Sequence record: NC_048170.1
Reading direction: 5' to 3' (one strand)
Length of the DNA stretch: 64,000 nt
Origin: Escherichia phage vB_EcoM_Goslar
The notes under the pieces were generated by a model. It ran no database searches, was not told where the DNA came from, and was given only the letters and a program-made list of their open reading frames with translations. Below, piece after piece: positions 14,745-53,836 of this stretch. The translations under genes and the position numbers were made by a program. The first letter of the stretch is position 1. Each line of letters starts with the position of its first letter.

Positions 14745-14785
14745 CGCACGTACCTCTTTGAATCTATTAATAAATTTTCTTTACT

Positions 14786-14809
14786 CACGTAAGTAATATA
14801 GCCGTGAAA
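14786..14809 (-). promoter_or_regulatory. conserved promoter-like motif, copy 1
   Basis: Plus-strand cacgtaagtaatatagccgtgaaa, identical 24-mer at 38055-38078; minus-sense contains TATATTAC; 42 nt upstream of the minus gene start at 14744. Confidence 0.45.
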
Positions 14810-31139: not shown

Positions 31140-32726
31140 TTATTTTTTTCCTCTTAAATTTACTACGTGTTCATTTAATCGAACAACTAATTGCACAAGC
31201 TGCTGACGGATATCTGCTGGACAAAGCATCAATCCTTTACGGTCAGCTGGGACTTTCTCAAGGATTTCCGGGCCTGCTGCTGAAACATCCCAGTCCCATT
31301 CACAAAACGCATCGGCCACCATGTTAATACCGACAACCGGTAAAGTTGTACGTTCATCTTCATACATGGCGTGTGGATACAATTTATTGACAGTAATGAT
31401 CTCCTGTGGTTTTAATTGGTGGATAATCTGATAAACATCGTCGCGTTTAACCTGGATACCTACGGTCAGCGCTGCCAGTTGAGGAAAACCCCAATGGTCT
31501 AATAAGCAAGCTGCAATCGCTAACGCTTTTGCTTGATGCACGGCTTCAATCGGTGCCAGACTTCTCGCCGGAAGATGGCTATCAAGCAACCATTGTGCCA
31601 GTGCTCGGCATCCGCGGTTGATTGGTTTTAACTCAACGGTGTCATCATGTTTAGCGTACGTGTATCCGTCGTAACGTTTTGCGATACGCGCATACATGTC
31701 TTCAACTTTACCGTAAGGTGCTGTTTCGTCGACGTCGTGTAACACACGTTCCATCTGGGTAAGATACGCGATGTCAAGAATGAGTACACGCGGTGAACGT
31801 TTATCTTTCACCATCAACGCATCAATCACGCCTTGACTGTCTTCATCTTGCGCGTTCCCTCGTGGGGTTTTCTCACGAATCGGTCCGCTGAAACGTCGTT
31901 CCGTACAAAGGTTATTCACGTAGCTAAAGATCAGTGTTACCAGATGCGTACAACTCACCAACACCCCATCTTTAACGACAGGCTGTACGGCTTGGTCCAA
32001 ATCGCGTACGGCGAGACGGCGGACGATGGCTTGTGAACGCAACCAGCCGGGCACTTTCTCCGTCGACATGTAATCCACGGTCATCGACAGCGTGATCTTT
32101 TTATCACCCGTCTGTGCGCGGATATAGTCTTCCAGTCGGTCGTAAGCGGCGATATCATGAATGCATGTTTTATACATCAACGACATAGCCACTTCTTCTT
32201 TACGGACTGTCCCGTACGTTTTCCCTGCGTCAATCAGAAACTCCGCCCAAATCGGCACCATCAGACGGACGTAGATCGCTAACGCCGTTAACTCAACGTA
32301 ATCATTTCGTAAATAGGTTTTCTCAGGTATGTCATCCTCACCTAATGTTGTTTTCATGTCCGGTGGTAATTTTACCCAACCTGGGGTATTACACAACGCC
32401 AGAATCTCTTCATACACAACCGGTTTGTAAATTTCACCAACAGCGCGACTCAACTCCTCCATTTGTTGTTGTGGAGCAATGTAGTTATCCATCGCTTCAC
32501 GTGCTTTAACGAACCCTTCGAAGATGTCGTCAATTCGACGTGGGTTCTTTTGTTCTATCCAGGCGAGATACTTGTTAATCTCCCGCATCTGATTGCTAGC
32601 CATATCCCCATCAATCTTGATGTAACCCTGGCCTGAAAATTCCACAGTACGTCCATCACGATGTTTGATGAGATAGTGATCCAGCTTTTCTTTTCCTTGC
32701 GTCGTAATGACGGGCACTATGTGCAT
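31140..32726 (-). CDS. hypothetical protein
   Basis: Start set at ATG 32726 (MHIVPV...) preceded by AGAGG; the longer ORF to 32861 has an Arg-rich extension. Confidence 0.5.
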   Translation of the reverse strand: MHIVPVITTQGKEKLDHYLIKHRDGRTVEFSGQGYIKIDGDMASNQMREINKYLAWIEQKNPRRIDDIFEGFVKAREAMDNYIAPQQQMEELSRAVGEIYKPVVYEEILALCNTPGWVKLPPDMKTTLGEDDIPEKTYLRNDYVELTALAIYVRLMVPIWAEFLIDAGKTYGTVRKEEVAMSLMYKTCIHDIAAYDRLEDYIRAQTGDKKITLSMTVDYMSTEKVPGWLRSQAIVRRLAVRDLDQAVQPVVKDGVLVSCTHLVTLIFSYVNNLCTERRFSGPIREKTPRGNAQDEDSQGVIDALMVKDKRSPRVLILDIAYLTQMERVLHDVDETAPYGKVEDMYARIAKRYDGYTYAKHDDTVELKPINRGCRALAQWLLDSHLPARSLAPIEAVHQAKALAIAACLLDHWGFPQLAALTVGIQVKRDDVYQIIHQLKPQEIITVNKLYPHAMYEDERTTLPVVGINMVADAFCEWDWDVSAAGPEILEKVPADRKGLMLCPADIRQQLVQLVVRLNEHVVNLRGKK

Positions 32727-32930
32727 AACAACCTCTTTTCGCGGTTCCCTGTTAAAACGTCTTCTGTGACGTCTACCACAAAGGTAATATAAGCGTGAAT
32801 AATTTTGGATTCCGGCTGAGTTATCGCTCAGCATGCAAGGCATCCCGCCGAAGCGAGACACCTTGCACTAACGGAAAATATTCGCGTTACCTTCTGAATC
32901 GAAGACTCAGAATGCGATGCTAAAGCATTA

Positions 32931-37503: not shown

Positions 37504-37989
37504 TTAAACCAAAGCTGCGATAACGTCGTTAACATTACGGCCTCGCAACTCTGCCGCTAAACGAATAACTTCATCCAGGGAACGGTTTGTACGAATCTTG
37601 GCCACTTTCCAATTTTCAGGATACTGTTCGAAGTTAAGCAACCAAGTCATTACCTTTGCTTGTTCCATACCGTTGAGTTTGATTGTCGTGCGCGGATTGG
37701 CTTTGAACCACTTCTTGCTCAGCTGTGCCATACGGCGAACAGGGTAAGCGTAAGCGCGAGTCCAGTCTTTGGACAGATTGTCGAGTAATTCACAGTAGCT
37801 GTTGTCGTAGTCTTTGTTGATACGACGTAATAACCAGTTGGCGGTCATCTGATAAAGTTTATCATCTTCACGTAACCGCATACCCGCTACTGCTAAATAA
37901 ACGATAAGACCTGCGCCCAGGATGAGAGACAGGATAAACAGAATTTGGGTTTCTTGTGCTAAAGTCATTTTACTATCCTCGGATTTCAT
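37504..37989 (-). CDS. hypothetical membrane protein
   Basis: Predicted transmembrane helix ILFILSLILGAGLIVYLAVAG near the N-terminus. Confidence 0.45.
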   Translation of the reverse strand: MKSEDSKMTLAQETQILFILSLILGAGLIVYLAVAGMRLREDDKLYQMTANWLLRRINKDYDNSYCELLDNLSKDWTRAYAYPVRRMAQLSKKWFKANPRTTIKLNGMEQAKVMTWLLNFEQYPENWKVAKIRTNRSLDEVIRLAAELRGRNVNDVIAALV

Positions 37990-38054
37990 TAGGATTTAAT
38001 TTCCAATATAAGGGCAATGTGATATGCCTTATACAGTCGATTGATGTTGTACAT

Positions 38055-38078
38055 CACGTAAGTAATATAGCCGTGAAA
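38055..38078 (-). promoter_or_regulatory. conserved promoter-like motif, copy 2
   Basis: Identical 24-mer to 14786-14809; 66 nt upstream of the minus gene start at 37989. Confidence 0.45.
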
Positions 38079-38967: not shown

Positions 38968-39606
38968 TTAACCTAATTTACCACCGGCGATGTTGGTGAA
39001 ATCTTCGCCATCAGGAACTTGCAGTAGGATACGTGCCATGTCCCAGTTGGTTAATGTGATTGCTTTATCATCGATACTCAGTTCTGGTAGGTCGAGTTCA
39101 TGATCATCAAACTCGTAGGAAATACTCCACGTTTCGTCTGTTTTAGGATCGGTTATCAACACACCGTCTGTTACACGCATGTAGTCCGGATGCAGTTCAT
39201 TACTGAATGTGCTGAACGGATCGGTGTAACATTCAGCATACCCCTCGATCTGCTGACGCTGTGCCTTCGTACGTAATTCAGGGCATGCCATGATCAGTTG
39301 TCGAGATATGCCGTTTGCGGCACGGAAGTCTTCCACGGTGTTACATGGCATAACCACATCGTCATGGAAGATGTTCTCCGATTGTCTCAGCAAAGTCTTA
39401 CGGAGTTCAGCATAGTTTATCTGATTGAATGCATCGAACGTTGCTAACGATTCAGCGTAAAAATGCTTTACGTGTTCGCTTGCACCGCCGAGACTATTCA
39501 TCAACTTGTGACCGTACTCCATGAAACTTTTATCGAGACCGGAGGACATTTCTCCGAACCTCAGTGCACGATAACTGTCTCGTCCACCTGTAAATATTTG
39601 CGCCAT
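38968..39606 (-). CDS. hypothetical protein
   Basis: 212-aa ORF with AGGAGG RBS, directly downstream of beta'-N exon 3. Confidence 0.45.
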   Translation of the reverse strand: MAQIFTGGRDSYRALRFGEMSSGLDKSFMEYGHKLMNSLGGASEHVKHFYAESLATFDAFNQINYAELRKTLLRQSENIFHDDVVMPCNTVEDFRAANGISRQLIMACPELRTKAQRQQIEGYAECYTDPFSTFSNELHPDYMRVTDGVLITDPKTDETWSISYEFDDHELDLPELSIDDKAITLTNWDMARILLQVPDGEDFTNIAGGKLG

Positions 39607-39621
39607 TACAGGCGTCCTCCT

Positions 39622-39846
39622 TTAGCAATGGGTGTTAGTTGCTTCTATTTCGTCAAGATAAGGTTCTACGTCATCGCCCTCCACGAATTCGTTGAACCAG
39701 CAGTCAATGGTAGAAATAACCGGTGACTGGTGTTCACATTTCTTAGATACCTTAAAAGGTACGTTATTATCCATCATACCGAGTTCGGGTCGAAAACGCC
39801 CGAAATGTTTCGCAGTCCAAATGTCTGGGACGATATGGTTGTTCAT
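39622..39846 (-). CDS. RNA polymerase beta'-like N-terminal subunit, proposed exon 3
   Basis: Begins MNNHIVPD, aligning with beta' QMAVHVPL right after the catalytic DFDGD; in frame with proposed exons 1 and 2. The exact 3' splice site is uncertain. Confidence 0.45.
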   Translation of the reverse strand: MNNHIVPDIWTAKHFGRFRPELGMMDNNVPFKVSKKCEHQSPVISTIDCWFNEFVEGDDVEPYLDEIEATNTHC

Positions 39847-40201
39847 CGTGGTGTTCAGCATGAGTCGCTACCTCATACCCGCAGCTTTACCTGCAGCTTC
39901 CGGTGTTACCGGAATGTCCAGAATACATCTTATCCATATTCCAAATGGAACGTAGGACTTCCGCGCTGGATCTCGCTTGAGACCACGTATTCGTTGAACG
40001 TTCTCCTGAACGGAGCTTCGCTGCTGATCGAACATTGTCGCGTACGGTAGGCGTCCCCGAAGGGATTGTCATTGAAGCCGCGTACATCCGCTACCTTGTT
40101 TCTACCTTATCGGTTCCTCTTACGAGGCGTAGCGGCCTTAGCCCTTCCCAGCAATTCACGGAATCCAAGCTCTTCCTTTCGGAAGGCAGGGCCTATGATT
40201 A
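39847..40201 (-). ncRNA. putative group I intron 2 (ORF-less)
   Basis: Minus-sense elements in canonical order: P-like GAATTGCTGGGAAGGG (40157-40142), Q-like CAGCAGCGAAGC (40026-40015), R-like GTTCAACGAATACG (39999-39986), S-like AAGATGTATTCTGG (39931-39918). R/S pair as GAATAC/GTATTC. GAAA and UUCG tetraloop hairpins; ends in G at 39847. Confidence 0.5.
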
Positions 40202-40214
40202 AGCGTCACCGTCG
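40202..40214 (-). CDS. RNA polymerase beta'-like N-terminal subunit, proposed 13-nt mini-exon (encodes D-G-D-A)
   Basis: Minus-sense CGACGGTGACGCT supplies GAC GGT GAC; joined to exon 1 (...GAC TT) it restores NADFDGD. Confidence 0.4.
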
Positions 40215-41654
40215 CTTACGTGCACCGACGTTTATTAACTCATGGTTATCCACTGAAATACGGCGTTAGGGAAATAATCCTTCTTGCCGCGTTTTGAGAT
40301 TTGCAATGCCATATTACTCGGAGACAATCTGTAATGCCATGCTGCTTCATCGATAGAACTAAACTTCTTTGTTTCACCGTTATCAAAGATGATTTTCAAC
40401 GCCAGTTTAGGTAAATCGTCTTCCGTTTCTACTAATTCGAAAGAATCGATATTCTCTGCCAGCGTCAACGGATCAACTGGTAATATCAGCCAACCAGCAC
40501 GCTGCAATCCTCCACGTAGACTAATTTGTTTATTCAACGCAGGGGTAGCCATGCCAACTAACTTAGCAGCCAGCTTGCGGTCTTTAATATAAAGACGATA
40601 ATCTCCGGTATTATTAATAGCATACACACCAAAGTTATTGAACGATACCTTTCCAGCATCGGAACTAGTAAAGCCTACAAAGTCGTGGCTGTCGGTAGCC
40701 ACGTCGTATTTAAATGCTAATGGCTTGTTTCGACTGCCGCTAAGATACTTCTTGGCTGTAGATACCGATATGTTGAGATATCGTCCAATAGCATTCAAAC
40801 TTTCTAGTTCGATGATTTCTCCTGTCAATATGTCCTTTAACCGAACATTACCCATCGGTATTGGTGGTTTACCGACATAACCCAATTCACGATATGCGTG
40901 TTTCAAGTTATCTGAATCAGTAGCCCATTCCAAATTTTCTAGTCTGTTATCCCAACGCACCCCATTAAGATGATTAGGGACACGACGGATTATACCTGAC
41001 GTCGGATCTGGGTTAAATGTTTCAAGGACAATCTGATGATGGTATTTCACTTTATTGTTCCTAGTGAAAGCGCGATAGTTGTTTTTGCCCGACTTGGGTG
41101 GTTCAGTACGAAACAACACTGTCAGACTAGACACATCTACTATCGTACCGTTCTTATTAACAACGATACCATCAAAACCATTAACAGGACGATAATCAGA
41201 CAAACAATCTTCAGAAATTGCCTGTCCAACTAAAGGTTCACTCAATTTGACCTCCTTTATAAAAGAAGTCGGTGCACGTAATTATCGACTATATCTTCAT
41301 CCTCGTTGCGAGGAGTCTCCCGTTTTGGTCTGTGTTTAACAGAGCCTACTCTACTCGACATCGCGTCTTTCGATAGTCTGTGAGCACACATCTTAACGAA
41401 CATTCGTGGATTCCTAAACAGGTGAACGTTCTTGTTGAGATGCTTCGCTGCGGATTATTCCCGTCCTACCTCTTTTACCCTACCCAGTTCATTACGCTGG
41501 CCCTCATCTGTGTCACCACGATGAGTTGGTGTGTAGTCCGATTACAGAAACTTCCCGTCAATTAGAGAGTTTTAACTACGTTCCTGTTACCAGAAACCCG
41601 ACTCCGACGATATCAATAAATCAACGTAAGTTATTGATTTAATTGAAGAAACTG
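40215..41654 (-). mobile_element. putative group I intron 1 carrying an HNH homing endonuclease gene
   Basis: Minus-sense P AATTGACGGGAAG (41563-41551), Q AATCCGCAGC (41456-41447), R CTCACAGACTATCG (41384-41371), S AAGATATAGTCGA (41297-41285). Candidate internal guide GAGTCGG (41604-41598) pairs with the exon 1 end CCGACTT with G-U at the splice site. 14-bp inverted repeat (41268-41281 and 40216-40229) encloses the ORF; terminal G at 40215. Confidence 0.6.
40235..41245 (-). CDS. HNH homing endonuclease (intron-encoded)
   Basis: KYHHQIV...VPNHLNGVRWDNRLENLEWATDSDNLKH matches the HNH motif; C-terminal helix-turn-helix-like regions; TTG start 5 nt after AAAGGAGGT. Confidence 0.75.
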   Translation of the reverse strand: MSEPLVGQAISEDCLSDYRPVNGFDGIVVNKNGTIVDVSSLTVLFRTEPPKSGKNNYRAFTRNNKVKYHHQIVLETFNPDPTSGIIRRVPNHLNGVRWDNRLENLEWATDSDNLKHAYRELGYVGKPPIPMGNVRLKDILTGEIIELESLNAIGRYLNISVSTAKKYLSGSRNKPLAFKYDVATDSHDFVGFTSSDAGKVSFNNFGVYAINNTGDYRLYIKDRKLAAKLVGMATPALNKQISLRGGLQRAGWLILPVDPLTLAENIDSFELVETEDDLPKLALKIIFDNGETKKFSSIDEAAWHYRLSPSNMALQISKRGKKDYFPNAVFQWITMS

Positions 41655-42910
41655 AAGTCGGCATTATAACCTTTGAGGATCATCACGCTTAACCCGATGG
41701 TGTTATCCTGCGGATCGCGTTTAACCTTGGTGATTTCAAGACATTGGTTACTGCTTCGGTCAAGTGATGGGTTTCGAACAAAGCCACACACAATCCCATC
41801 GAACGGTGTATCAGCAATAAGCTCATCGTGCAGCTCGCTCATCATCGGATGATAATTACGGACATGTTCCGCAACGAACGCACGTGCTGCTCTCGGTGAA
41901 TAACCACGATGGAATAACTTGGATTGGATATGTTCTTTATTGGTTAAAGTAAATGGTGCGTATGGGAAATGCAGATGATAATAACGATGGTTCGCTGTTA
42001 TCGAACTGATTACAGTACGCGTGGTGAATGGATGTAATGTACCTAATATGTTTTTACGTGTAATACCTTTCTTCTTACCGATGAACTCATCGAAAATCGC
42101 CGCGTGGTATTGCAGCAGCTTCAATTGCACTTTCGCCATCCAGTTTTCTTTCTTTCTGGCGCTCAAAGGTGTTGTTGGATGATAGATACTATTCAACGTA
42201 CCGATAGCATCGATCGCACCTTCCATTTTGCTATCTGCATAACGACCGGTCGGCGTATTTTCGATAACGAACATCATGGCCGCAGGAAAGCTGATATACT
42301 GACTGAAGAACTTATCACGATGGATTCGGATGAATTCTCGTAGCGTGTCAACTTTCTCCGTGTTCTTCGGTCCACGTAACGTAGGTCCTTTATACAAGAT
42401 CTCCATGATGCGATCGAAGTTCTGTATAAAGCTATTTACGCCACGACGTATCCCGAATACATCGAATTGCTGCTCCAGATAGTTCTTGAGTTCGATGGGT
42501 CGTTTTACATTTGGACGGTAACTGGCATCAATGAGCCACGTCATCGTTTCAAAGCTTTTGATATTCAACTCGCTTGCCAGCACGAGATGGACCAACGGGT
42601 TAATGAACGCATCGATTCCTTCAGGAACACGCGCCCAAACCGTCGAACGAATCTCTTGTTCTGCTGGGTAGGTTACAACCGTTTTACAGTTTGGACACAC
42701 CGTGCCGAGTAGCTCACCACGATTGTAGAAACCACAACCACATTGTGGTGTGATATCCAACGTATCGCTGGAATAAACACGGGTGATAAAACTGTTTAAT
42801 TTCTTCTTCTCTTCGACGACTTTTGTATCGTAATCGTTCAACAAAATCGGCGTAAAAGGAAGTTCTGCGAGCTGTCTATCGAAACTCACGATATCGAGCA
42901 TGATGGCCAT
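41655..42910 (-). CDS. RNA polymerase beta'-like N-terminal subunit, exon 1
   Basis: Zinc ribbon CGCGFYN...CPNC; GITRKNILGTLHPFTTRTVI parallels [20 protein letters not shown]; ends ...LKGYNADF. The unspliced ORF then reads SFFN-stop. Confidence 0.7.
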
Positions 42911-42952
42911 GGGGTATCTCCTACAAATGAAAAAGAACGTTAGGACGTATAA

Positions 42953-42976
42953 GGGAGGGAGGTTGCCCTCCCTCCC
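42953..42976 (-). terminator. GC hairpin downstream of the 631-aa gene
   Basis: Perfect 10-bp inverted repeat gggagggagg/cctccctccc with 4-nt loop. Confidence 0.5.
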
Positions 42977-43002
42977 GTCAGATTACATCGAACGTTCTTC
43001 CA

Positions 43003-44898
43003 TTAGAACAGGTTGAATGCCCCACCCATGTTGTTAACGCCAACATTCGGACGATCGCTACGTGCGTAGATGTTACCGGAGATGTTACCCAGACCACGAG
43101 CACGTGCTGCCATGTTACCACGAACAGCGGTACCTGCCAGATGCTGGATGTTCTCAGGACGGATGGTGAAGCCAGCATCAGCAGCGGCTTCGATCAGCGC
43201 CTGCAGTGCTAACGGATCGAAGTCGTAACGCATTGCCCAGCCGGTTTGTTCCCAGCTACCAGACAGAACACGATCGATGATTTCGTGACGAGCGACAACA
43301 CGCTGAGACATCGTCATATCGGTACGGTCGAAGCTGTCTTCCCAAGCTTCTACGGTATCCGGGTTAGTGATGTTCATCATGTACAGATCGTCCATATCAC
43401 GAATATCGTGACGGTGACCATCCTGGTGGTTGTAGTGACCCAGCGGGATACGGTTACCGGTAGCGTAGACCAGCGGTAAGCCGTATTGATATTTCTTGCT
43501 GAAGCAACCCAGGGTAACATCATCGAACGCACGGTAAAGCGCTTTGTAACCTTCGGAGATTTCACGGACTTCACCTTCAACTTTGCCCGTATAGATCTTC
43601 TCAGCCGCCGGGATCATACGCAGCAGCCAGCTGTACTCACCTTCTTCCGGTACGTCGATAGAAATCAGCAGAGACGGATACAGTACCTGTTGCAGGAACT
43701 TGTAAATCTGCTCGTTGGTTTGAGTGGACAGATCCAGCGGTGCGGTAACTTCCGGATCCAGTACCATCGCCAGAGCACCCGGGTTATGCGGACCAATACC
43801 ACGGGCAGCGTTGCTGATTAAAGACTGTGCCCACGCCATACCGCTGTTCAGCGTAGCGATGGTGCCAATCAGCCCCAACACGAAAGTGTTCGGCGTGAAC
43901 GCATCCAGCTCCAGCGGGTAAGCGCTGGTCATCACGTAACGCGGCTGGTATTGTACAGTCGGCGGTACCGGATAACCGTTAACCAGAACAGGGCCTTGGT
44001 TGAAGGTCGGGTTCTGCGGGCTGTAGGTCAGGTCGATGTAACCGGTGGTGGCGACCAGACGCTGTTGACTATCGTAATCGCTCATCGCTTGACGGATACG
44101 GTTAGAGATAGTTACAGTGATGTCAGAACGCACAGGGTTACCAACAATATCGCTGTCCTGCATACCGCTGGTGTTATACTGAACGCTGCTGATTGGCTGA
44201 TCGCTTGCCATCATGCCCAGGTTGAACTGCGGCAGACCCAGTTTATCACCGAGACGGATTTCGATCGCGGTTTGGATTGCGTTATCTGCAGCAGACAGCA
44301 GGGTGGTTGCCAGATGCGCAGATTCAGCGGTGATTTCATTGGTCACCACAGCCAGACCAGCGATACGAGCAGTACCATTAGACTTACCGCCAATAGCTGC
44401 ATACATTGCCGCCATGACTTCGTTGATGAACGTACCGTTCAGGTTATCAACCCAGGTACGCGGTACCAGAATGTTACCATGCGGACCTTGTTCTTCACGA
44501 CGCGGCAGCGGAGCCAAACCGGCAACCAGCGGAAGCACATAACCAAAGAAGTGGTTATGGTCACCAACTTTTGCACCACTCATAACGACCAGGGTCGGAT
44601 ACGGTACGCTGTACTGGTTCGGGTCAACCGCAACAAAGATGAAGTCGTCTTTGAACCGGGTATCTTCCAGATATTTCTCCATCAGACGACGGAGATTCAG
44701 TACCTGCTCGGAGCCAGTATTACGGCTAATACGACGGCTCAGTGTACGGTTGATCGTACGCATCGTATGAGTTACTTTAGGCTGGCCAGCAAAATCTGCA
44801 GCGGTTTCCAGCGCCTCATCAGCACGTTGTGCGGTGCGGGTTTCAGCTGCACGAATTTCTACATTATCGTTACCGTTATTACGTACGTCTAAGCCCAT
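43003..44898 (-). CDS. abundant structural protein candidate: chimallin-like nuclear-shell protein (alternative: capsid or sheath protein)
   Basis: 631-aa ORF with codon usage that looks strongly biased; promoter-like motif 67 nt upstream; sits immediately upstream of the beta'-N gene, the arrangement I recall for the phiKZ shell-protein and RNAP genes. No diagnostic motif seen by eye. Confidence 0.45.
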   Translation of the reverse strand: MGLDVRNNGNDNVEIRAAETRTAQRADEALETAADFAGQPKVTHTMRTINRTLSRRISRNTGSEQVLNLRRLMEKYLEDTRFKDDFIFVAVDPNQYSVPYPTLVVMSGAKVGDHNHFFGYVLPLVAGLAPLPRREEQGPHGNILVPRTWVDNLNGTFINEVMAAMYAAIGGKSNGTARIAGLAVVTNEITAESAHLATTLLSAADNAIQTAIEIRLGDKLGLPQFNLGMMASDQPISSVQYNTSGMQDSDIVGNPVRSDITVTISNRIRQAMSDYDSQQRLVATTGYIDLTYSPQNPTFNQGPVLVNGYPVPPTVQYQPRYVMTSAYPLELDAFTPNTFVLGLIGTIATLNSGMAWAQSLISNAARGIGPHNPGALAMVLDPEVTAPLDLSTQTNEQIYKFLQQVLYPSLLISIDVPEEGEYSWLLRMIPAAEKIYTGKVEGEVREISEGYKALYRAFDDVTLGCFSKKYQYGLPLVYATGNRIPLGHYNHQDGHRHDIRDMDDLYMMNITNPDTVEAWEDSFDRTDMTMSQRVVARHEIIDRVLSGSWEQTGWAMRYDFDPLALQALIEAAADAGFTIRPENIQHLAGTAVRGNMAARARGLGNISGNIYARSDRPNVGVNNMGGAFNLF

Positions 44899-44964
44899 TT
44901 GGGATTCCTCTTTTCTTAAACTTTATTAAATGACGTCATTGAATCAGCTTCTACTCGCTCATTC

Positions 44965-44988
44965 ACCTAGGTAATATAACCCTGAAAT
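44965..44988 (-). promoter_or_regulatory. conserved promoter-like motif, copy 3
   Basis: cacctaggtaatataaccctgaaa, 20/24 identical to copies 1 and 2; 67 nt upstream of the gene start at 44898. Confidence 0.4.
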
Positions 44989-45152
44989 TTTTTTCAATAT
45001 TGGTGTAACCACATTGAACGATATAAACCCCTAGGCGAACGCTGCCGAGAAGCAACATTCTTTCTACATATAATCAGGATATGTCTGTAAACTTTTACTT
45101 CTCTTATTGAGAGTAATGTCATATCCGTTTACTACCTTCTTACGGAGTTCGT

Positions 45153-46247
45153 ATGTTTCGTGTTTTAAATAACCTCCCGCGAACATCATCGGGTGTGCAA
45201 CCCGTCCCTCAGAAAGACTATCTAATACGCGAAGTTCAAAGAAACCTACAGACAATCCAGAACCACTATCAAGGTTTTACCTTCGCGGTTCAGAGCGATC
45301 ACATCCTTGCGTTGCTGCTCGCACAGCTCCCTATGAGATACGACATCTCAGTACAAACTTACTACGACATGATTCTCGATCTTACCCCAGAATTGGGTAA
45401 TCGTGTCAAGTTGACAACATCAAGATACGCGGGTAAGTTATTCGACGGTGCTTTCTATCCGGGACTGCACGAAGCTATTATCGCAACCGGTGAAAGTCGT
45501 CTTATTTCACGTGATGTTCTTGACAACTGGCGTAATTGGTCACCAGTTAGAATCGTGACGCACCCATACGCAAATCTTCGTTACATTCCTCTTCACCAAA
45601 AGCAGGTTGAAGAAGGACGAGGTTTTGCGGTCATTATGGTTGATGTGCCTTTGTTAGCGCTACAGTATCGAATGTGGTCTTTGGTCATGGGTCATAACGT
45701 CGACGGTAAATGGGTGGTTAAAGAACCGGTTACAAGCTTCCTTGCGAGTTTTCCGTTGGTTAACGCATTATACTCACACAACGATGTTGTTATACGCAAT
45801 CGTTGTTTGTGGGTATCACCGGCTAAGAATCCACTCAAATCACCAATTTACGTTAACGACCTTGATAACGTATTCAGCCAAGTCGTTCTGTCCGTACAGC
45901 ATCATTTATTACGAAGAAGACGAAGCTACACCGATATGCTTAAACAGATACCGAGTTTATACGGGGATCAGTACCAAGCAACCCGAATGGGTTACACCGT
46001 CGATCTTCGACAAACACGATGGGCAAGGGATCTGGGTTGTCTGTCATTATGGCAACAACTCGTCACATTGCAAAACGTATCTGAAAGCGTCGGGTTCAGC
46101 AGTCAAATCGATAACGACCTGTACCGTGCTGCTGACCGTAGTCTAAAAGAAGGTAACTGGGAGTCCTCTCCGTTACCTGGCGATTTAAGACGTGAAGTTA
46201 TCGCACAGGTTGCCGACCTCTTAAAAATTCTTCCCGCCGGTGCATAA
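45153..46247 (+). CDS. hypothetical protein
   Basis: 364-aa plus-strand ORF followed by a GC hairpin (about 46256-46300). Confidence 0.5.
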   Translation: MFRVLNNLPRTSSGVQPVPQKDYLIREVQRNLQTIQNHYQGFTFAVQSDHILALLLAQLPMRYDISVQTYYDMILDLTPELGNRVKLTTSRYAGKLFDGAFYPGLHEAIIATGESRLISRDVLDNWRNWSPVRIVTHPYANLRYIPLHQKQVEEGRGFAVIMVDVPLLALQYRMWSLVMGHNVDGKWVVKEPVTSFLASFPLVNALYSHNDVVIRNRCLWVSPAKNPLKSPIYVNDLDNVFSQVVLSVQHHLLRRRRSYTDMLKQIPSLYGDQYQATRMGYTVDLRQTRWARDLGCLSLWQQLVTLQNVSESVGFSSQIDNDLYRAADRSLKEGNWESSPLPGDLRREVIAQVADLLKILPAGA

Positions 46248-46313: not shown

Positions 46314-48467
46314 TTATTCTGCGGTTTCTTGCTTCGGTAAATAACTTGCTGCAATGTCTTGGGCTAACAATGTATTGTTTTTATTCGAGATGAAAATACC
46401 GTAACTTTCCATTAACGCGTAATACGAACGAACGAGCGTAGAGATCAATCGACGAATATCCATACCTTGAATAAAGATATCAGGAAGCCCGGAGGCTTCG
46501 ATCACCGGTAATGGTATCGTTAAGTTGCTTATCGTTTTCTTATCGTTACGTACAATCCAATCACGGAAACGTTGTTGTAACCCTTTATCCTCCCAGGAAT
46601 CAATCCAATCGTTAAGAAGCGTTTTGTTCTTCGTCGCCAACGGCACACGAACCCCAACATAGGGCGGTTCCTGGCAATGGCCGTACGATTGAGCAAACAC
46701 CTCTTCCCACATATCGTAAGACTGTTTCGTTACCGCAACATGTGGCTTCACTTTAACACGTGTTAAGAAATCGGGATCACCTCGTTTCATGGACTCAACG
46801 ATTTCGTTTTCTAACGAGATAATATCATCAAGAACCAATCGAATGCTGATCTTCTCGTTACGTAACAGCTTATCCATGATACCACACATCATGCGTTCAA
46901 CACGTTTGACGATCATTTTTGGTGCTGACGCGTCACGCATAACCGGACCTTTCAATTCCAGCTTCGGTGGGTTGATAGGAACCCCCTCACGCATGGTCAT
47001 GTAACCGTAATAGTTTTTACCCATCGAGGTTAACGACAGAATCAAGAACATATATTCGTTCTTCATTTCCATCACGTACATATGCTCTTTCGCTACACCG
47101 ATATTACCAGAACACATCGCCATCAGATGAACCGTAATCTGCGTAACCAGATAGATAAGCGTATTTGCTAAGCGCGTCGAAACTGGATTGATCTCCATAT
47201 TTCCAAATCGCCACTGCACCCACTCCTGGCAGGTAAACACCGTCGAGTCGGTATCAGACAACACACCCACTTCACGGATTGCTGATGGGAAAGCATAAAC
47301 GCCAGCCGGTTGGTTCTCGGTACGCCAGAATGCCATAATCAAATCTGCGTAGCTTTGAATACGCTGTAGCATTAATTTTGTCGTCGCCGCAGTAAGACGA
47401 TAACCAAGTTCATTTCCTTTTTCTAGCGCTACGTAAATCGCTTCCCCGTTCAAGAACTCCGTGCATTGTGCTGTAATCCAAGCGACCGTGTTGTTATCCA
47501 TGGAAGCAATAATGGCTTTAGCCTCTTCCATCGTTTCAACAGGTTCGGATGCCAGCTCACATAACGAGTCAAGAAAATCTCGAACAAATTCAGGATTAAG
47601 CTCACGTAACGAGTACAGGTTATTGCTGTACATGTAGCAGGCACGTTCCAACGGTGTTAAACCGGTAATTAACTCCCGGATAGTCAGTTCTTTCTCTGGG
47701 TCGAAAGTATATCGATGCAAGCATTTCGATACGTTAGCCCAAACCTCTTCCGGCGTAGGGTAATGTAGTTTGTATTTTACCATTACCTGCTCAATGGCTT
47801 TGCGATCGCTGTTACGAACAATACTTACGATGTTTTCAATTGCGATATCACAATCGTAATAATGGAAATTGCCCGCAAGGAAGCGTTCGTTGTTCGCATT
47901 GGCTGAACCTGAAGCACAGCGACATGTTGTCGTTAAACTTGGATGCGCGATCGGATTATAAAAAGGGTTAAACTTGGACGCCTGGGTTCCTGACAAACTG
48001 TTGTTGTCTAACTTGGTGTTGGTTTGTCGTTTATCGTGTAACTCAGCTTCGTCTTTACGTCCGTGTGCTTGCGCTATCGACATTTGTTTCTTTTGTTTCT
48101 TACGCAACTTACCGTTTTCAACCGCGAAGTCGCTTAGCACACTGGAACGTGTTTCACGTGGATAACAGTTAGCCCATACCGGCGTGATAATTAAATTATT
48201 TTCTTTAATATCATTGAAGTATTGGCTGAACTTGATGACTTCTTTTTCACGATTTCCTTCGGTACGCTGTGTTAATACAAGACAGTCGGGATCAACCATC
48301 CCGTATTTTCCACCGGGACGAACCGTATCAAGGACAAACTGCAACGCTTCCTGCTGTGATATCCCACGCATGCGCATTAAGAACAGGGTATAATCCTGTA
48401 CCGCTTCTTTGGTCATATCCAACGTACGACCATATCCGTTTTCATCGTAAAAGAACGGATTTTCCAT
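46314..48467 (-). CDS. hypothetical large protein
   Basis: 717-aa ORF; contains VLSDTDS, superficially like a polymerase motif C, but no other polymerase motifs confirmed. Confidence 0.5.
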   Translation of the reverse strand: MENPFFYDENGYGRTLDMTKEAVQDYTLFLMRMRGISQQEALQFVLDTVRPGGKYGMVDPDCLVLTQRTEGNREKEVIKFSQYFNDIKENNLIITPVWANCYPRETRSSVLSDFAVENGKLRKKQKKQMSIAQAHGRKDEAELHDKRQTNTKLDNNSLSGTQASKFNPFYNPIAHPSLTTTCRCASGSANANNERFLAGNFHYYDCDIAIENIVSIVRNSDRKAIEQVMVKYKLHYPTPEEVWANVSKCLHRYTFDPEKELTIRELITGLTPLERACYMYSNNLYSLRELNPEFVRDFLDSLCELASEPVETMEEAKAIIASMDNNTVAWITAQCTEFLNGEAIYVALEKGNELGYRLTAATTKLMLQRIQSYADLIMAFWRTENQPAGVYAFPSAIREVGVLSDTDSTVFTCQEWVQWRFGNMEINPVSTRLANTLIYLVTQITVHLMAMCSGNIGVAKEHMYVMEMKNEYMFLILSLTSMGKNYYGYMTMREGVPINPPKLELKGPVMRDASAPKMIVKRVERMMCGIMDKLLRNEKISIRLVLDDIISLENEIVESMKRGDPDFLTRVKVKPHVAVTKQSYDMWEEVFAQSYGHCQEPPYVGVRVPLATKNKTLLNDWIDSWEDKGLQQRFRDWIVRNDKKTISNLTIPLPVIEASGLPDIFIQGMDIRRLISTLVRSYYALMESYGIFISNKNNTLLAQDIAASYLPKQETAE

Positions 48468-52855: not shown

Positions 52856-53836
52856 TTAGAAAAGCAAGAAACCGCTATTCTTCGCTTCCGCTACAGTTTC
52901 GTCACCAACTTTCGGTGCTTGTTGACGTGCGTTACGATGTTCGATGTAACGTTTCGCTTCGTCAGCGATTTGTTTGATAATACCCCCTAAACGATCGGTA
53001 CTTAAAACAAACGACGTCGCTTCACGAATCGGGCTGCTTTCAGGCACAAAACCATCACAGCTATAAATAGCGCTAACACCCATGACTTTTGTCGCGTCTT
53101 TCGGATAAAGCGTACAGAAAGCAATCGGGCTATCGTTCTCTTTCGTCCATTCGTATCCCATGAACGTATTCAGTTCGGTGATCGTCGGTTCCAAACCGGT
53201 AACACGTGGATGGTTTAAGAAGTTTTCCAGGTCGGCGCTGTCAAGACGACGGTTCTCGCCAGAAAACAGAACACAAAGCTGGCTAATAACAACCTGCACG
53301 TCCAGGTTGACATCCTGCTCCGATTTCCCATTTTCGCCATTCATGTGATAGCTAACAATCACTGGACGTTTCAACCCTTCTGCAGCCGCCATCAGTCCTT
53401 TGAAGGTGCGATCGGCGTTGATCGTCTGGCGCTCATCATCGAACGAGGCAACGATACAACACACCACACGTTCACCGCGTTCCAGCAGGTTAGCAACCAA
53501 CGCAGGACCGGCAACAGAACCTGAACCACCGCTCAAACTAAAGACCACGATATTAAATTTACCTGGCGTATGCTTATTGAGAATACCTGGGATTTGTGAA
53601 CAGATCAGTTCAGCGTTCTCATCACGCTTCTTACCAGAACCGTCTAACTCACGACCAGCTGCATCTTTAAAGATGTAAATATGATCGTCGCCCAGTGTGC
53701 TATCGCGTAGGTTAGCGCGGCTGGTATCAACATACGTCATGCTGTGTAATCCTTTCGCGACTTCGCCTTCAAATGCTGAGCCGATTTCGCCACCACAACC
53801 ACCGACAGCCCAAATATGTACTTGGTTCTCTTGCAT
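52856..53836 (-). CDS. phuZ: tubulin/FtsZ-like GTPase, PhuZ-like
   Basis: N-terminal VHIWAVGGCGGEIG (FtsZ GVGGGGxN-like) and FSLSGGSGSVAGPALV (tubulin signature GGGTGSG-like); about 326 aa with an acidic C-terminal tail. Confidence 0.65.
   Translation of the reverse strand: MQENQVHIWAVGGCGGEIGSAFEGEVAKGLHSMTYVDTSRANLRDSTLGDDHIYIFKDAAGRELDGSGKKRDENAELICSQIPGILNKHTPGKFNIVVFSLSGGSGSVAGPALVANLLERGERVVCCIVASFDDERQTINADRTFKGLMAAAEGLKRPVIVSYHMNGENGKSEQDVNLDVQVVISQLCVLFSGENRRLDSADLENFLNHPRVTGLEPTITELNTFMGYEWTKENDSPIAFCTLYPKDATKVMGVSAIYSCDGFVPESSPIREATSFVLSTDRLGGIIKQIADEAKRYIEHRNARQQAPKVGDETVAEAKNSGFLLF

What the first reader, a model, noticed from the sequence alone, without database searches (positions are those of the whole stretch)
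43003..44898. 631-aa gene upstream of beta'-N is a chimallin (nuclear shell) candidate
Its size is about what I recall for chimallins (roughly 70 kDa), its codon usage looks strongly biased, and it has the promoter-like motif upstream and a strong hairpin downstream. It sits immediately 5' of the RNAP beta'-N gene, which is the gene order I recall for the phiKZ shell protein and the adjacent nvRNAP subunit. The sequence alone cannot exclude a capsid or sheath protein.
Basis: inference. Interest (0 to 1): 0.55.

Follow-up and report, generated by a model that had tools for sequence, protein, structure and literature searches.

The report
Known phage nuclear shell protein, chimallin

Summary
The ORF at 43003..44898 (minus strand, 631 aa, 69.6 kDa) is 100% identical over its full length to PDB 7SQT/7SQU/7SQV. 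An exact-sequence look-up matches it to YP_009820873.1 / UniProt CHMA_BPGOS, chimallin gp189 of Escherichia phage vB_EcoM_Goslar. It passes the Pfam chimallin model (88 bits against a cut-off of 27) and the PHROG "nuclear shell protein" family (4e-52).

- **Codon bias:** it is the most biased gene in the window (Nc 34.9 against a median of 50; E. coli CAI 0.61, rank 1 of 66).
- **Promoter motif:** a 24-nt motif containing TATATTAC, the published phiKZ/201phi2-1 promoter core, ends 64 nt before the ATG. It occurs four times in the window, where none are expected by chance.
- **Hairpin:** a strong hairpin (-41 kcal/mol, z = -6) follows the stop codon.
- **Neighbour:** the next gene is the nvRNAP beta'-N subunit, in the same order as in PhiPA3 (whose annotation links it to phiKZ gp54-gp55) and Eowyn.

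Capsid and sheath readings are excluded. The gene is already known and of low interest.

One thing seen in passing may be new. The neighbouring beta'-N gene appears to be split by two group I introns around a 13-nt micro-exon that encodes the catalytic DGD residues.

The parts
43003..44898 (-). chmA coding sequence (631 codons plus TAA): chimallin, the phage nuclear shell protein, identical to Goslar gp189
   Evidence: ORF list and translation. 100% identity to PDB 7SQT. Exact match to YP_009820873.1 / CHMA_BPGOS. Pfam PF25677 at 88.2 bits against a cut-off of 27, and PHROG 4795 at 4.3e-52.
44963..44986 (-). Early-promoter-like motif TTCAGGGTTATATTACCTAGGTGA, preceded by an A/T-rich tract. It contains the TATATTAC-N4-GTG core listed in a compilation of predicted promoters for phiKZ and 201phi2-1.
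   Evidence: Four copies in the window, all on the minus strand and none expected by chance. Published promoter table in PMC7058600. The upstream 120 nt are 100% identical in two relatives whose chmA coding sequence differs by 2.5-4.5%. Promoter function is inferred and was not tested.
44906..44912 (-). Ribosome-binding site AAGAGGA, 7 nt upstream of the ATG
   Evidence: Read directly from the sequence.
42926..43004 (-). Long 3' hairpin that overlaps the stop codon. Its core is a 10-bp G+C stem with a GCAA loop at 42953-42976, and TTTTTCATTT follows the whole stem. It looks like a terminator or an mRNA-stabilising element.
   Evidence: RNA fold of -41.1 kcal/mol, z = -6.05. Nearly invariant in two relatives. 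The simple terminator scan did not flag it. Function is inferred.
41655..42910 (-). Context: exon 1 of the nvRNAP beta'-N subunit gene, immediately downstream of chmA
   Evidence: PHROG 2987 at 2.3e-117. phiKZ gp55 chain 7ogp_A at 5e-62. Same position relative to chimallin in PhiPA3 and Eowyn.
45153..46247 (+). Context: divergently transcribed 364-aa gene of unknown function (PHROG 3938). It occupies the same position as the opposite-strand genes PhiPA3 gp051 (annotated as similar to phiKZ gp052) and Eowyn ORF052.
   Evidence: The correspondence rests on position and orientation only; the sequences were not compared.
46314..48467 (-). Context: divergent family B DNA polymerase, upstream of the chmA block
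   Evidence: Pfam PF20286 at 2.4e-204 and PHROG 2927.

Best explanation
The ORF encodes chimallin (ChmA), the major protein of the phage nucleus of a Goslar-type E. coli jumbo phage (Chimalliviridae).

**How it works, from published work on this exact protein and on its 201phi2-1 homologue:**
- It is made early and in large amounts.
- The roughly 70-kDa protomer has a two-domain core: an N-terminal alpha/beta domain and a GCN5-related acetyltransferase-like C-terminal domain that lacks catalytic residues.
- An N-terminal segment docks on a neighbouring protomer to form tetramers. Two C-terminal segments on flexible linkers tie tetramers together.
- The result is a one-protein-thick, flexible square lattice that closes around the replicating phage DNA.
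- Its pores are about 1.4 nm wide on average and reach about 2.3 nm. They pass metabolites, and perhaps single-stranded mRNA, but exclude folded proteins. This keeps restriction enzymes and CRISPR nucleases away from the genome and separates transcription from translation.

**Inferred from the window sequence:**
- The gene is transcribed from an early promoter of the phiKZ type (TATATTAC), probably read by the virion RNA polymerase.
- Its codon usage is tuned to E. coli for very high translation.
- Its transcript ends, or is stabilised, at a strong 3' hairpin. Some read-through may feed the downstream nvRNAP beta'-N gene.
For: - **Identity (shown):** 100% identity over 631 aa to the PDB 7SQT/7SQU/7SQV chimallin chains, which the authors list as Goslar models. 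Exact-sequence match to Goslar_00189 / YP_009820873.1 / CHMA_BPGOS on a 237,307-bp contig. Two IMG/VR relatives with 95.5-97.5% nucleotide identity were examined; one already differs by 12 residues, so an exact match points to Goslar itself or a near-clone.
- **Family (shown):** Pfam PF25677 at 88.2 bits against a cut-off of 27, covering residues 22-595. PHROG 4795 'nuclear shell protein' at 4.3e-52, covering residues 18-629. Other PDB matches are PhiPA3 PhuN at 1.5e-20 and 201phi2-1 chimallin at 1.1e-09.
- **Context (shown):** nvRNAP beta'-N lies directly downstream. A divergent family B DNA polymerase lies upstream. PhuZ tubulin lies at 52856..53836. The chimallin-then-beta'-N order is the same in PhiPA3 and Eowyn, and the polymerase / opposite-strand gene arrangement upstream also matches Eowyn.
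- **Function (literature):** GFP-gp189 forms the shell around Goslar DNA in infected E. coli (PMC9891218). In situ cryo-ET, a 2.3 Å protomer structure, self-assembly data and pore sizes are reported in PMC9365700. ChmA is reported as essential by knockdown in a Chimalliviridae phage (abstract of PMC10541120); a review figure legend places the ChmA-inhibition work in Goslar.
- **Expression signals (shown as sequence features, function inferred):** the promoter motif, the codon bias, the hairpin, and flanks that are more conserved than the coding sequence.
Against: Nothing argues against the identification.

- The source genome and its close relatives are missing from the 'phages' and 'E. coli genomes' collections. 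Identity to Goslar therefore rests on the protein, not on a whole-genome DNA alignment.
- Promoter and terminator functions were not tested here. The generic sigma-70 and terminator scans find nothing special, which is expected if phage RNA polymerases read these signals.
- The CAI weights were recalled from memory. Nc is independent of them.
Confidence: 0.98

Rival explanations
1. It is a virion structural protein: a major capsid protein with an HK97 fold, or a tail sheath protein. The first reader could not exclude this.
For: Only its size, its high-expression signature, and the detection of chimallin by mass spectrometry in Goslar virion preparations.
Against: No capsid or sheath family matches in Pfam or PHROGs at E up to 0.01. 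The protein is identical to a solved structure whose family has a GNAT-like C-terminal domain, described for the 201phi2-1 protomer with which Goslar superposes at 1.8 Å. The Goslar major capsid protein is gp41. Chimallin is not described as a virion component in the virion study, whose authors attribute its MS signal to co-purified nucleus fragments.
Confidence: 0.005
2. It is an active GNAT-type acetyltransferase or toxin, like AtaT, rather than a structural shell protein.
For: The C-terminal domain of chimallin has a GCN5-related N-acetyltransferase fold closest to AtaT, and CTS1 binds where the antitoxin AtaR binds AtaT (PMC9365700).
Against: The same paper states that the acetyltransferase active-site residues are absent. 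No acetyltransferase Pfam family matches at E up to 0.01. The protein is observed as the lattice itself, both in situ and in vitro.
Confidence: 0.01
3. The window comes from a very close relative of Goslar, not from Goslar itself, with an identical chimallin.
For: The 90% cluster has 249 members on contigs of about 235-260 kb from E. coli and Salmonella assemblies. No whole-genome DNA comparison with Goslar was possible.
Against: The look-up lists the exact sequence only under the Goslar accessions, seen on a single 237,307-bp contig. A relative at 97.5% nucleotide identity already has 12 amino-acid changes. This rival does not change what the gene is.
Confidence: 0.1

Closest known systems
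Chimallin ChmA gp189 of Escherichia phage vB_EcoM_Goslar (YP_009820873.1, UniProt CHMA_BPGOS, PDB 7SQT/7SQU/7SQV)
   Same: Identical sequence, all 631 residues.
   Different: Nothing detectable. The 2026 virion paper calls the same protein gp246 under another numbering.
Chimallin gp105 of Pseudomonas phage 201phi2-1 (PDB 7SQQ-7SQS)
   Same: Same length (631 aa), same fold (protomer r.m.s.d. 1.8 Å) and the same NTS/CTS1/CTS2 tail-swapping assembly, according to PMC9365700. The phmmer match is 1.1e-09 over residues 62-596.
   Different: Only about 19-21% sequence identity. CTS2 is shorter in Goslar and makes different contacts. The host is different.
PhuN / chimallin gp053 of Pseudomonas phage PhiPA3 (PDB 8FNE, 8FV5), and by annotation phiKZ gp054
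   Same: Homologous over about 85% of its length (phmmer 1.5e-20; tblastn 21.6% identity). Same position directly upstream of the nvRNAP beta'-N gene.
   Different: Low identity. In vitro, PhiPA3 chimallin assembles mainly as an oblique p2 lattice.
Nuclear shell protein of Klebsiella phage vB_KvM-Eowyn (YP_010644571.1)
   Same: One of the two best full-length matches in the phage collection, with Serratia phage KpHz_2 (23.0% identity over 91%). The four-gene order is identical: polymerase, opposite-strand gene, shell protein, beta'-N.
   Different: Very divergent in sequence. Its beta'-N gene is annotated as one uninterrupted 519-aa ORF, whereas the window's copy is split.

Membership tests
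Chimallin / ChmA (Pfam PF25677, PHROG 4795) | Near full-length match to the family profile above the curated threshold | tested here: met
   PF25677 at 88.2 bits against a cut-off of 27, residues 22-595 on profile positions 13-591 of 627. PHROG 4795 at 4.3e-52, residues 18-629.
Chimallin / ChmA (Pfam PF25677, PHROG 4795) | Chimallin protomer architecture: alpha/beta N-domain, GNAT-like C-domain, and NTS, CTS1 and CTS2 segments that bind neighbouring protomers | tested here: met
   Met by sequence identity (100% over 631 aa) to the experimentally solved Goslar chimallin 7SQT/7SQU/7SQV. The architecture is described in PMC9365700. No new structure prediction was needed.
Chimallin / ChmA (Pfam PF25677, PHROG 4795) | Self-assembles into the closed shell around replicating phage DNA in infected cells | not testable with these tools
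   Shown experimentally for this exact protein: a GFP-gp189 shell in infected E. coli, and in situ cryo-ET plus in vitro cubic assemblies.
Chimallin / ChmA (Pfam PF25677, PHROG 4795) | Encoded in a genome with other hallmark genes of nucleus-forming phages (split multisubunit RNAP, PhuZ tubulin, divergent family B DNA polymerase) | tested here: met
   nvRNAP beta'-N at 41655..42910. PhuZ at 52856..53836, 1.9e-68. divDNApol at 2.4e-204.
Chimallin / ChmA (Pfam PF25677, PHROG 4795) | Conserved position immediately upstream of the nvRNAP beta'-N gene (the phiKZ gp54-gp55 order) | tested here: met
   Same order in PhiPA3, whose annotation cross-references phiKZ gp054/gp055, and in Eowyn.
Chimallin / ChmA (Pfam PF25677, PHROG 4795) | Early, abundant expression | tested here: inconclusive
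   A phiKZ-type TATATTAC motif lies upstream, and the gene has the strongest codon bias in the window. Both fit early, abundant expression, but expression itself was not measured here. The literature calls chimallin early-expressed.
HK97-fold major capsid protein, or tail sheath protein | Match to a capsid or sheath family, and being a major ordered virion component | tested here: not met
   No such Pfam or PHROG hit. The Goslar major capsid protein is gp41, and chimallin in virion preparations is attributed to nucleus fragments.
GCN5-related N-acetyltransferases (AtaT-like toxins) | Acetyltransferase profile match and catalytic residues | tested here: not met
   No acetyltransferase Pfam family at E up to 0.01. 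Active-site residues are reported absent. Only the fold of the C-terminal domain resembles this family.

The most novel reading that the evidence does not exclude
Nothing about chmA itself is new. The most novel reading left open at this locus concerns the neighbour named in the finding, the nvRNAP beta'-N gene.

- In this window the gene appears to be split into three exons by two group I introns, one of which carries an HNH endonuclease.
- The introns flank a 13-nt micro-exon (40202-40214) that supplies the Mg-binding DGD of the NADFDGD catalytic loop.
- Close relatives carry other intron combinations, at four different insertion points within about 25 nt.

This would make the catalytic-loop codons an intron-homing hot spot, possibly used in competition between co-infecting Goslar-like phages. 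Introns in phiKZ gp55 are already known. The tandem micro-exon arrangement and its polymorphism did not appear in one full-text search of the held library.
Probability: 0.5. Interest if true: 0.4.

Novelty: already known. Interest (0 to 1): 0.1.

Why it matters
Chimallin is one of the more striking recent discoveries in phage biology. It is a single protein that builds a nucleus-like compartment and shields phage DNA from restriction and CRISPR systems. This particular protein, however, already has a 2.3 Å structure, in situ tomography, localisation data and knockdown evidence, so re-identifying it adds no new biology.

The result is useful as a calibration. A reader working from size, codon bias, flanking motifs and gene order alone reached the right answer. 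It also anchors the whole window as a Goslar-type chimallivirus, which helps interpret other findings from the same window: the TATATTAC motif, PhuZ, the RNAP subunits and the introns.

Tried and rejected
- **DNA searches for the source genome:** megablast of the gene against the phage collection and of 39500-45200 against complete E. coli genomes found nothing. The source genome and its near relatives are evidently not in those collections. tblastn found only distant chimallins of 25% identity or less at full length, and about 30% over partial matches.
- **Exact-protein contig look-up:** nothing was on record, so relatives were fetched through the beta'-N protein in IMG/VR instead.
- **Generic signal scans:** the sigma-70 scan gave 7 sites against 9.6 expected, and the terminator scan gave 5 against 5.3 expected. 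Neither flagged the real motif or the hairpin. This fits signals read by phage RNA polymerases, and a T-run that follows the outer stem rather than the inner one.
- **TATATTAC on its own:** the 8-mer is not significantly enriched (4 against 2.6 expected). A loose 15-mer with 2 mismatches is at chance level (20 against 20). Only the extended 24-nt motif is significant.
- **Structure prediction and fold search:** considered and not run, because an experimental structure of the identical sequence exists.
- **The two large protein-database searches:** not used, because the answer did not need them.
- **Biopython's built-in E. coli codon index:** not available, so the weights were entered by hand.

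Full report
**1. The observation**

The ORF exists exactly as described: 43003..44898 on the minus strand, ATG start, 631 codons. The protein has a calculated mass of 69.6 kDa and a pI of 5.2. An AAGAGGA ribosome-binding site lies 7 nt before the ATG.

- **Codon usage.** Among 66 crude ORF calls in the window, this gene has the lowest effective number of codons. Its Nc is 34.9, against a median of 50.2 (sd 4.1) for the 33 genes of at least 200 aa. It also has the highest codon adaptation index against E. coli highly expressed genes, 0.61 against a median of 0.29. Its G+C content is higher than its surroundings. The CAI weights were entered from memory of Sharp & Li 1987, because the library table was unavailable. 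Nc does not depend on them.
- **Upstream motif.** TTCAGGGTTATATTACCTAGGTGA lies at 44963-44986 on the minus strand, preceded by an A/T-rich run, and ends 64 nt before the ATG. The 24-nt consensus occurs four times in the window (14785, 32776, 38054, 44963). All four are on the coding strand, and none occurred in 100 shuffles. At least three of the four visibly precede a ribosome-binding site and ATG. The bare 8-mer is not significant by itself.
- **Downstream hairpin.** A 10-bp G+C stem with a GCAA loop (42953-42976) is nested in a longer stem (42926-43004) that is followed by TTTTTCATTT. The fold energy is -41.1 kcal/mol, z = -6.05.

**2. What it is**

The protein is 100% identical over all 631 residues to the chimallin chains of PDB entries 7SQT, 7SQU and 7SQV. 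The data-availability statement of Laughlin et al. (Nature 2022, PMC9365700) lists these as the Goslar chimallin models. The same paper names Goslar chimallin as gp189, 631 aa, YP_009820873.1.

An exact-sequence look-up returns QBO63981.1 / YP_009820873.1 / UniProt CHMA_BPGOS on a 237,307-bp contig. Profile searches agree independently. Pfam PF25677 (Chimallin_Phikzvirus) scores 88.2 bits against a cut-off of 27. PHROG 4795, 'nuclear shell protein', scores 4.3e-52. Both matches are nearly end to end, and no other family matches.

Two IMG/VR relatives whose chmA coding sequence is 95.5-97.5% identical at the nucleotide level were examined. One already shows 12 amino-acid changes, so exact identity points to Goslar itself or a near-clone. 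The source genome is absent from the phage and E. coli collections provided, so no whole-genome DNA confirmation was possible.

**3. Context**

- The gene 92 nt downstream (42910..41639) is the N-terminal part of the non-virion RNA polymerase beta' subunit. It matches PHROG 2987 at 2.3e-117 and phiKZ gp55 chain 7ogp_A at 5e-62.
- Upstream lie a divergently transcribed gene of unknown function (45153..46247) and the divergent family B DNA polymerase (46314..48467).
- PhuZ tubulin lies at 52856..53836.
- The same polymerase / opposite-strand gene / shell protein / beta'-N order is annotated in Klebsiella phage Eowyn. The shell-then-beta'-N order is also annotated in PhiPA3, whose notes cross-reference phiKZ gp054 and gp055.

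**4. How it works**

What follows is published work, not my computation. GFP-gp189 forms the shell around the DNA mass in Goslar-infected E. coli (PMC9891218). [quoted passage not shown]

The protomer has an alpha/beta N-domain and a GCN5-related acetyltransferase-like C-domain that lacks catalytic residues. An N-terminal segment links protomers into tetramers, and two flexibly tethered C-terminal segments link tetramers together. The result is a flexible square lattice whose pores are about 1.4 nm wide on average and at most about 2.3 nm. Metabolites, and perhaps single-stranded mRNA, can pass, but folded proteins cannot. Goslar chimallin superposes on the 201phi2-1 protomer at 1.8 Å despite about 19% identity. 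ChmA is reported as essential by knockdown (abstract of PMC10541120).

The following is my inference from the sequence. The TATATTAC-N4-GTG core is the same as the predicted promoter strings tabulated for phiKZ and 201phi2-1 (PMC7058600 Table 2). Early promoters of this group are well conserved (PMC11512511). The gene is therefore probably transcribed early, by the injected virion RNA polymerase.

The extreme E. coli-like codon bias fits a protein needed quickly and in thousands of copies. The upstream 120 nt are 100% identical, and the hairpin nearly so, in relatives whose coding sequence has diverged by 2.5-4.5%. This argues that both flanks are functional. In 201phi2-1, the only early promoter found near the beta' gene gp107 lies about 3 kb upstream of it. 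That would fit partial read-through of the hairpin feeding beta'-N here too, but this is a guess.

**5. Rivals**

- **Capsid or sheath.** No family match. The solved chimallin structure has a GNAT-like C-terminal domain. The Goslar major capsid protein is gp41, and chimallin in virion preparations is ascribed to co-purified nucleus fragments.
- **Active acetyltransferase.** There is fold resemblance only, and the active site is absent.

**6. Novelty and score**

This is an exact rediscovery of a structurally and functionally characterised protein, so the verdict is 'already known' and interest is low.

**7. Seen in passing: the beta'-N neighbour appears to be split**

The 423-aa ORF stops at ...GYNADFSFFN*, in the middle of the universal NADFDGD catalytic loop.

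- Rfam's group I intron model matches full length at 41269-41645. The score is 46.9 bits, just below the gathering score of 50, with E = 8.5e-10.
- An HNH endonuclease ORF follows at 41245..40235.
- Right after it comes C GAC GGT GAC GCT (40214-40202), then about 355 nt with a weak partial group I match (16.7 bits), then an ORF segment starting MNNHIVPD (39846..39622).
- Both proposed introns start after a T and end in G.
- Joining the three exons gives a 497-aa protein that aligns without gaps across both junctions to phiKZ gp55/56.1. NADFDGDAMNNHIVPDIW aligns to NADFDGDQLNLTLMPDVY. The score rises from 213 to 255 bits, and cellular beta'/RPB1 subunits now also match.
- Two IMG/VR relatives differ. 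One has the first intron without the HNH cassette, plus a third group-I-like insert just before YNADF. The other lacks the first intron but has a different insert after GYNA.
- Introns in phiKZ gp55 and in other chimallivirus RNAP genes are known. I found no paper describing this tandem micro-exon arrangement in Goslar. Splicing was not tested.

Noticed in passing
window 39622-42910 (minus strand): The nvRNAP beta'-N gene appears to be split into three exons. Exon 1 is 42910..41655. Intron A is 41654..40215, with a group I core at 41269-41645 (46.9 bits). A 13-nt micro-exon at 40214..40202 encodes the end of F plus DGDA. Intron B is 40201..39847, with a weak group I match. Exon 3 is 39846..39622. 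The spliced 497-aa product restores NADFDGD and aligns without gaps to phiKZ gp55/56.1 (255 bits against 213 for exon 1 alone).
   Followed up: partly
window 40235-41245 (minus strand): An HNH/NUMOD homing-endonuclease ORF (336 aa, TTG start) sits at the 3' end of intron A. The whole cassette (window 40217-41281) is missing from relative L004, which keeps the intron core. The endonuclease therefore looks like a separately mobile insertion.
   Followed up: partly
L003 7236-7960 and L004 7242-8400 (IMG/VR relatives): Close relatives carry different group-I-like inserts in the same roughly 25 nt that code for GYNADFDGDA. L004 has three: one before YNADF, one after NADF, and one after DGDA. L003 has two: one after GYNA and one after DFDGDA. 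That makes four distinct insertion points, an apparent intron-homing hot spot at the RNAP active site.
   Followed up: partly
window 14785-14808, 32776-32799, 38054-38077 (all minus strand): Three further copies of the 24-nt TTCACGGNTATATTACNTANGTGA motif. Those at 14785 and 32776 each lie upstream of a ribosome-binding site and ATG, and the one at 38054 lies upstream of the ORF 37504..37989. They are candidate early (vRNAP) promoters. In two copies the motif arms TCACG and CGTGA are reverse complements.
   Followed up: partly
window 52856-53836 (minus strand): PhuZ tubulin homologue (PHROG 4733, 1.9e-68), another hallmark gene of nucleus-forming phages, about 8 kb upstream of chmA.
   Followed up: no
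window 31140-32843 (minus strand): The longest ATG-started ORF here runs over the promoter-like motif at 32776-32799. A ribosome-binding site and ATG lie about 70 nt downstream of the motif, so the true start is probably near 32707 rather than 32843.
   Followed up: no
window 42911-43002 and 44899-45018, compared with L003 and L004: The non-coding flanks of chmA (120 nt upstream; the hairpin downstream) are 99-100% identical in relatives whose chmA coding sequence is only 95.5-97.5% identical. In L004, 30 codons carry synonymous changes and 12 carry non-synonymous changes.
   Followed up: yes
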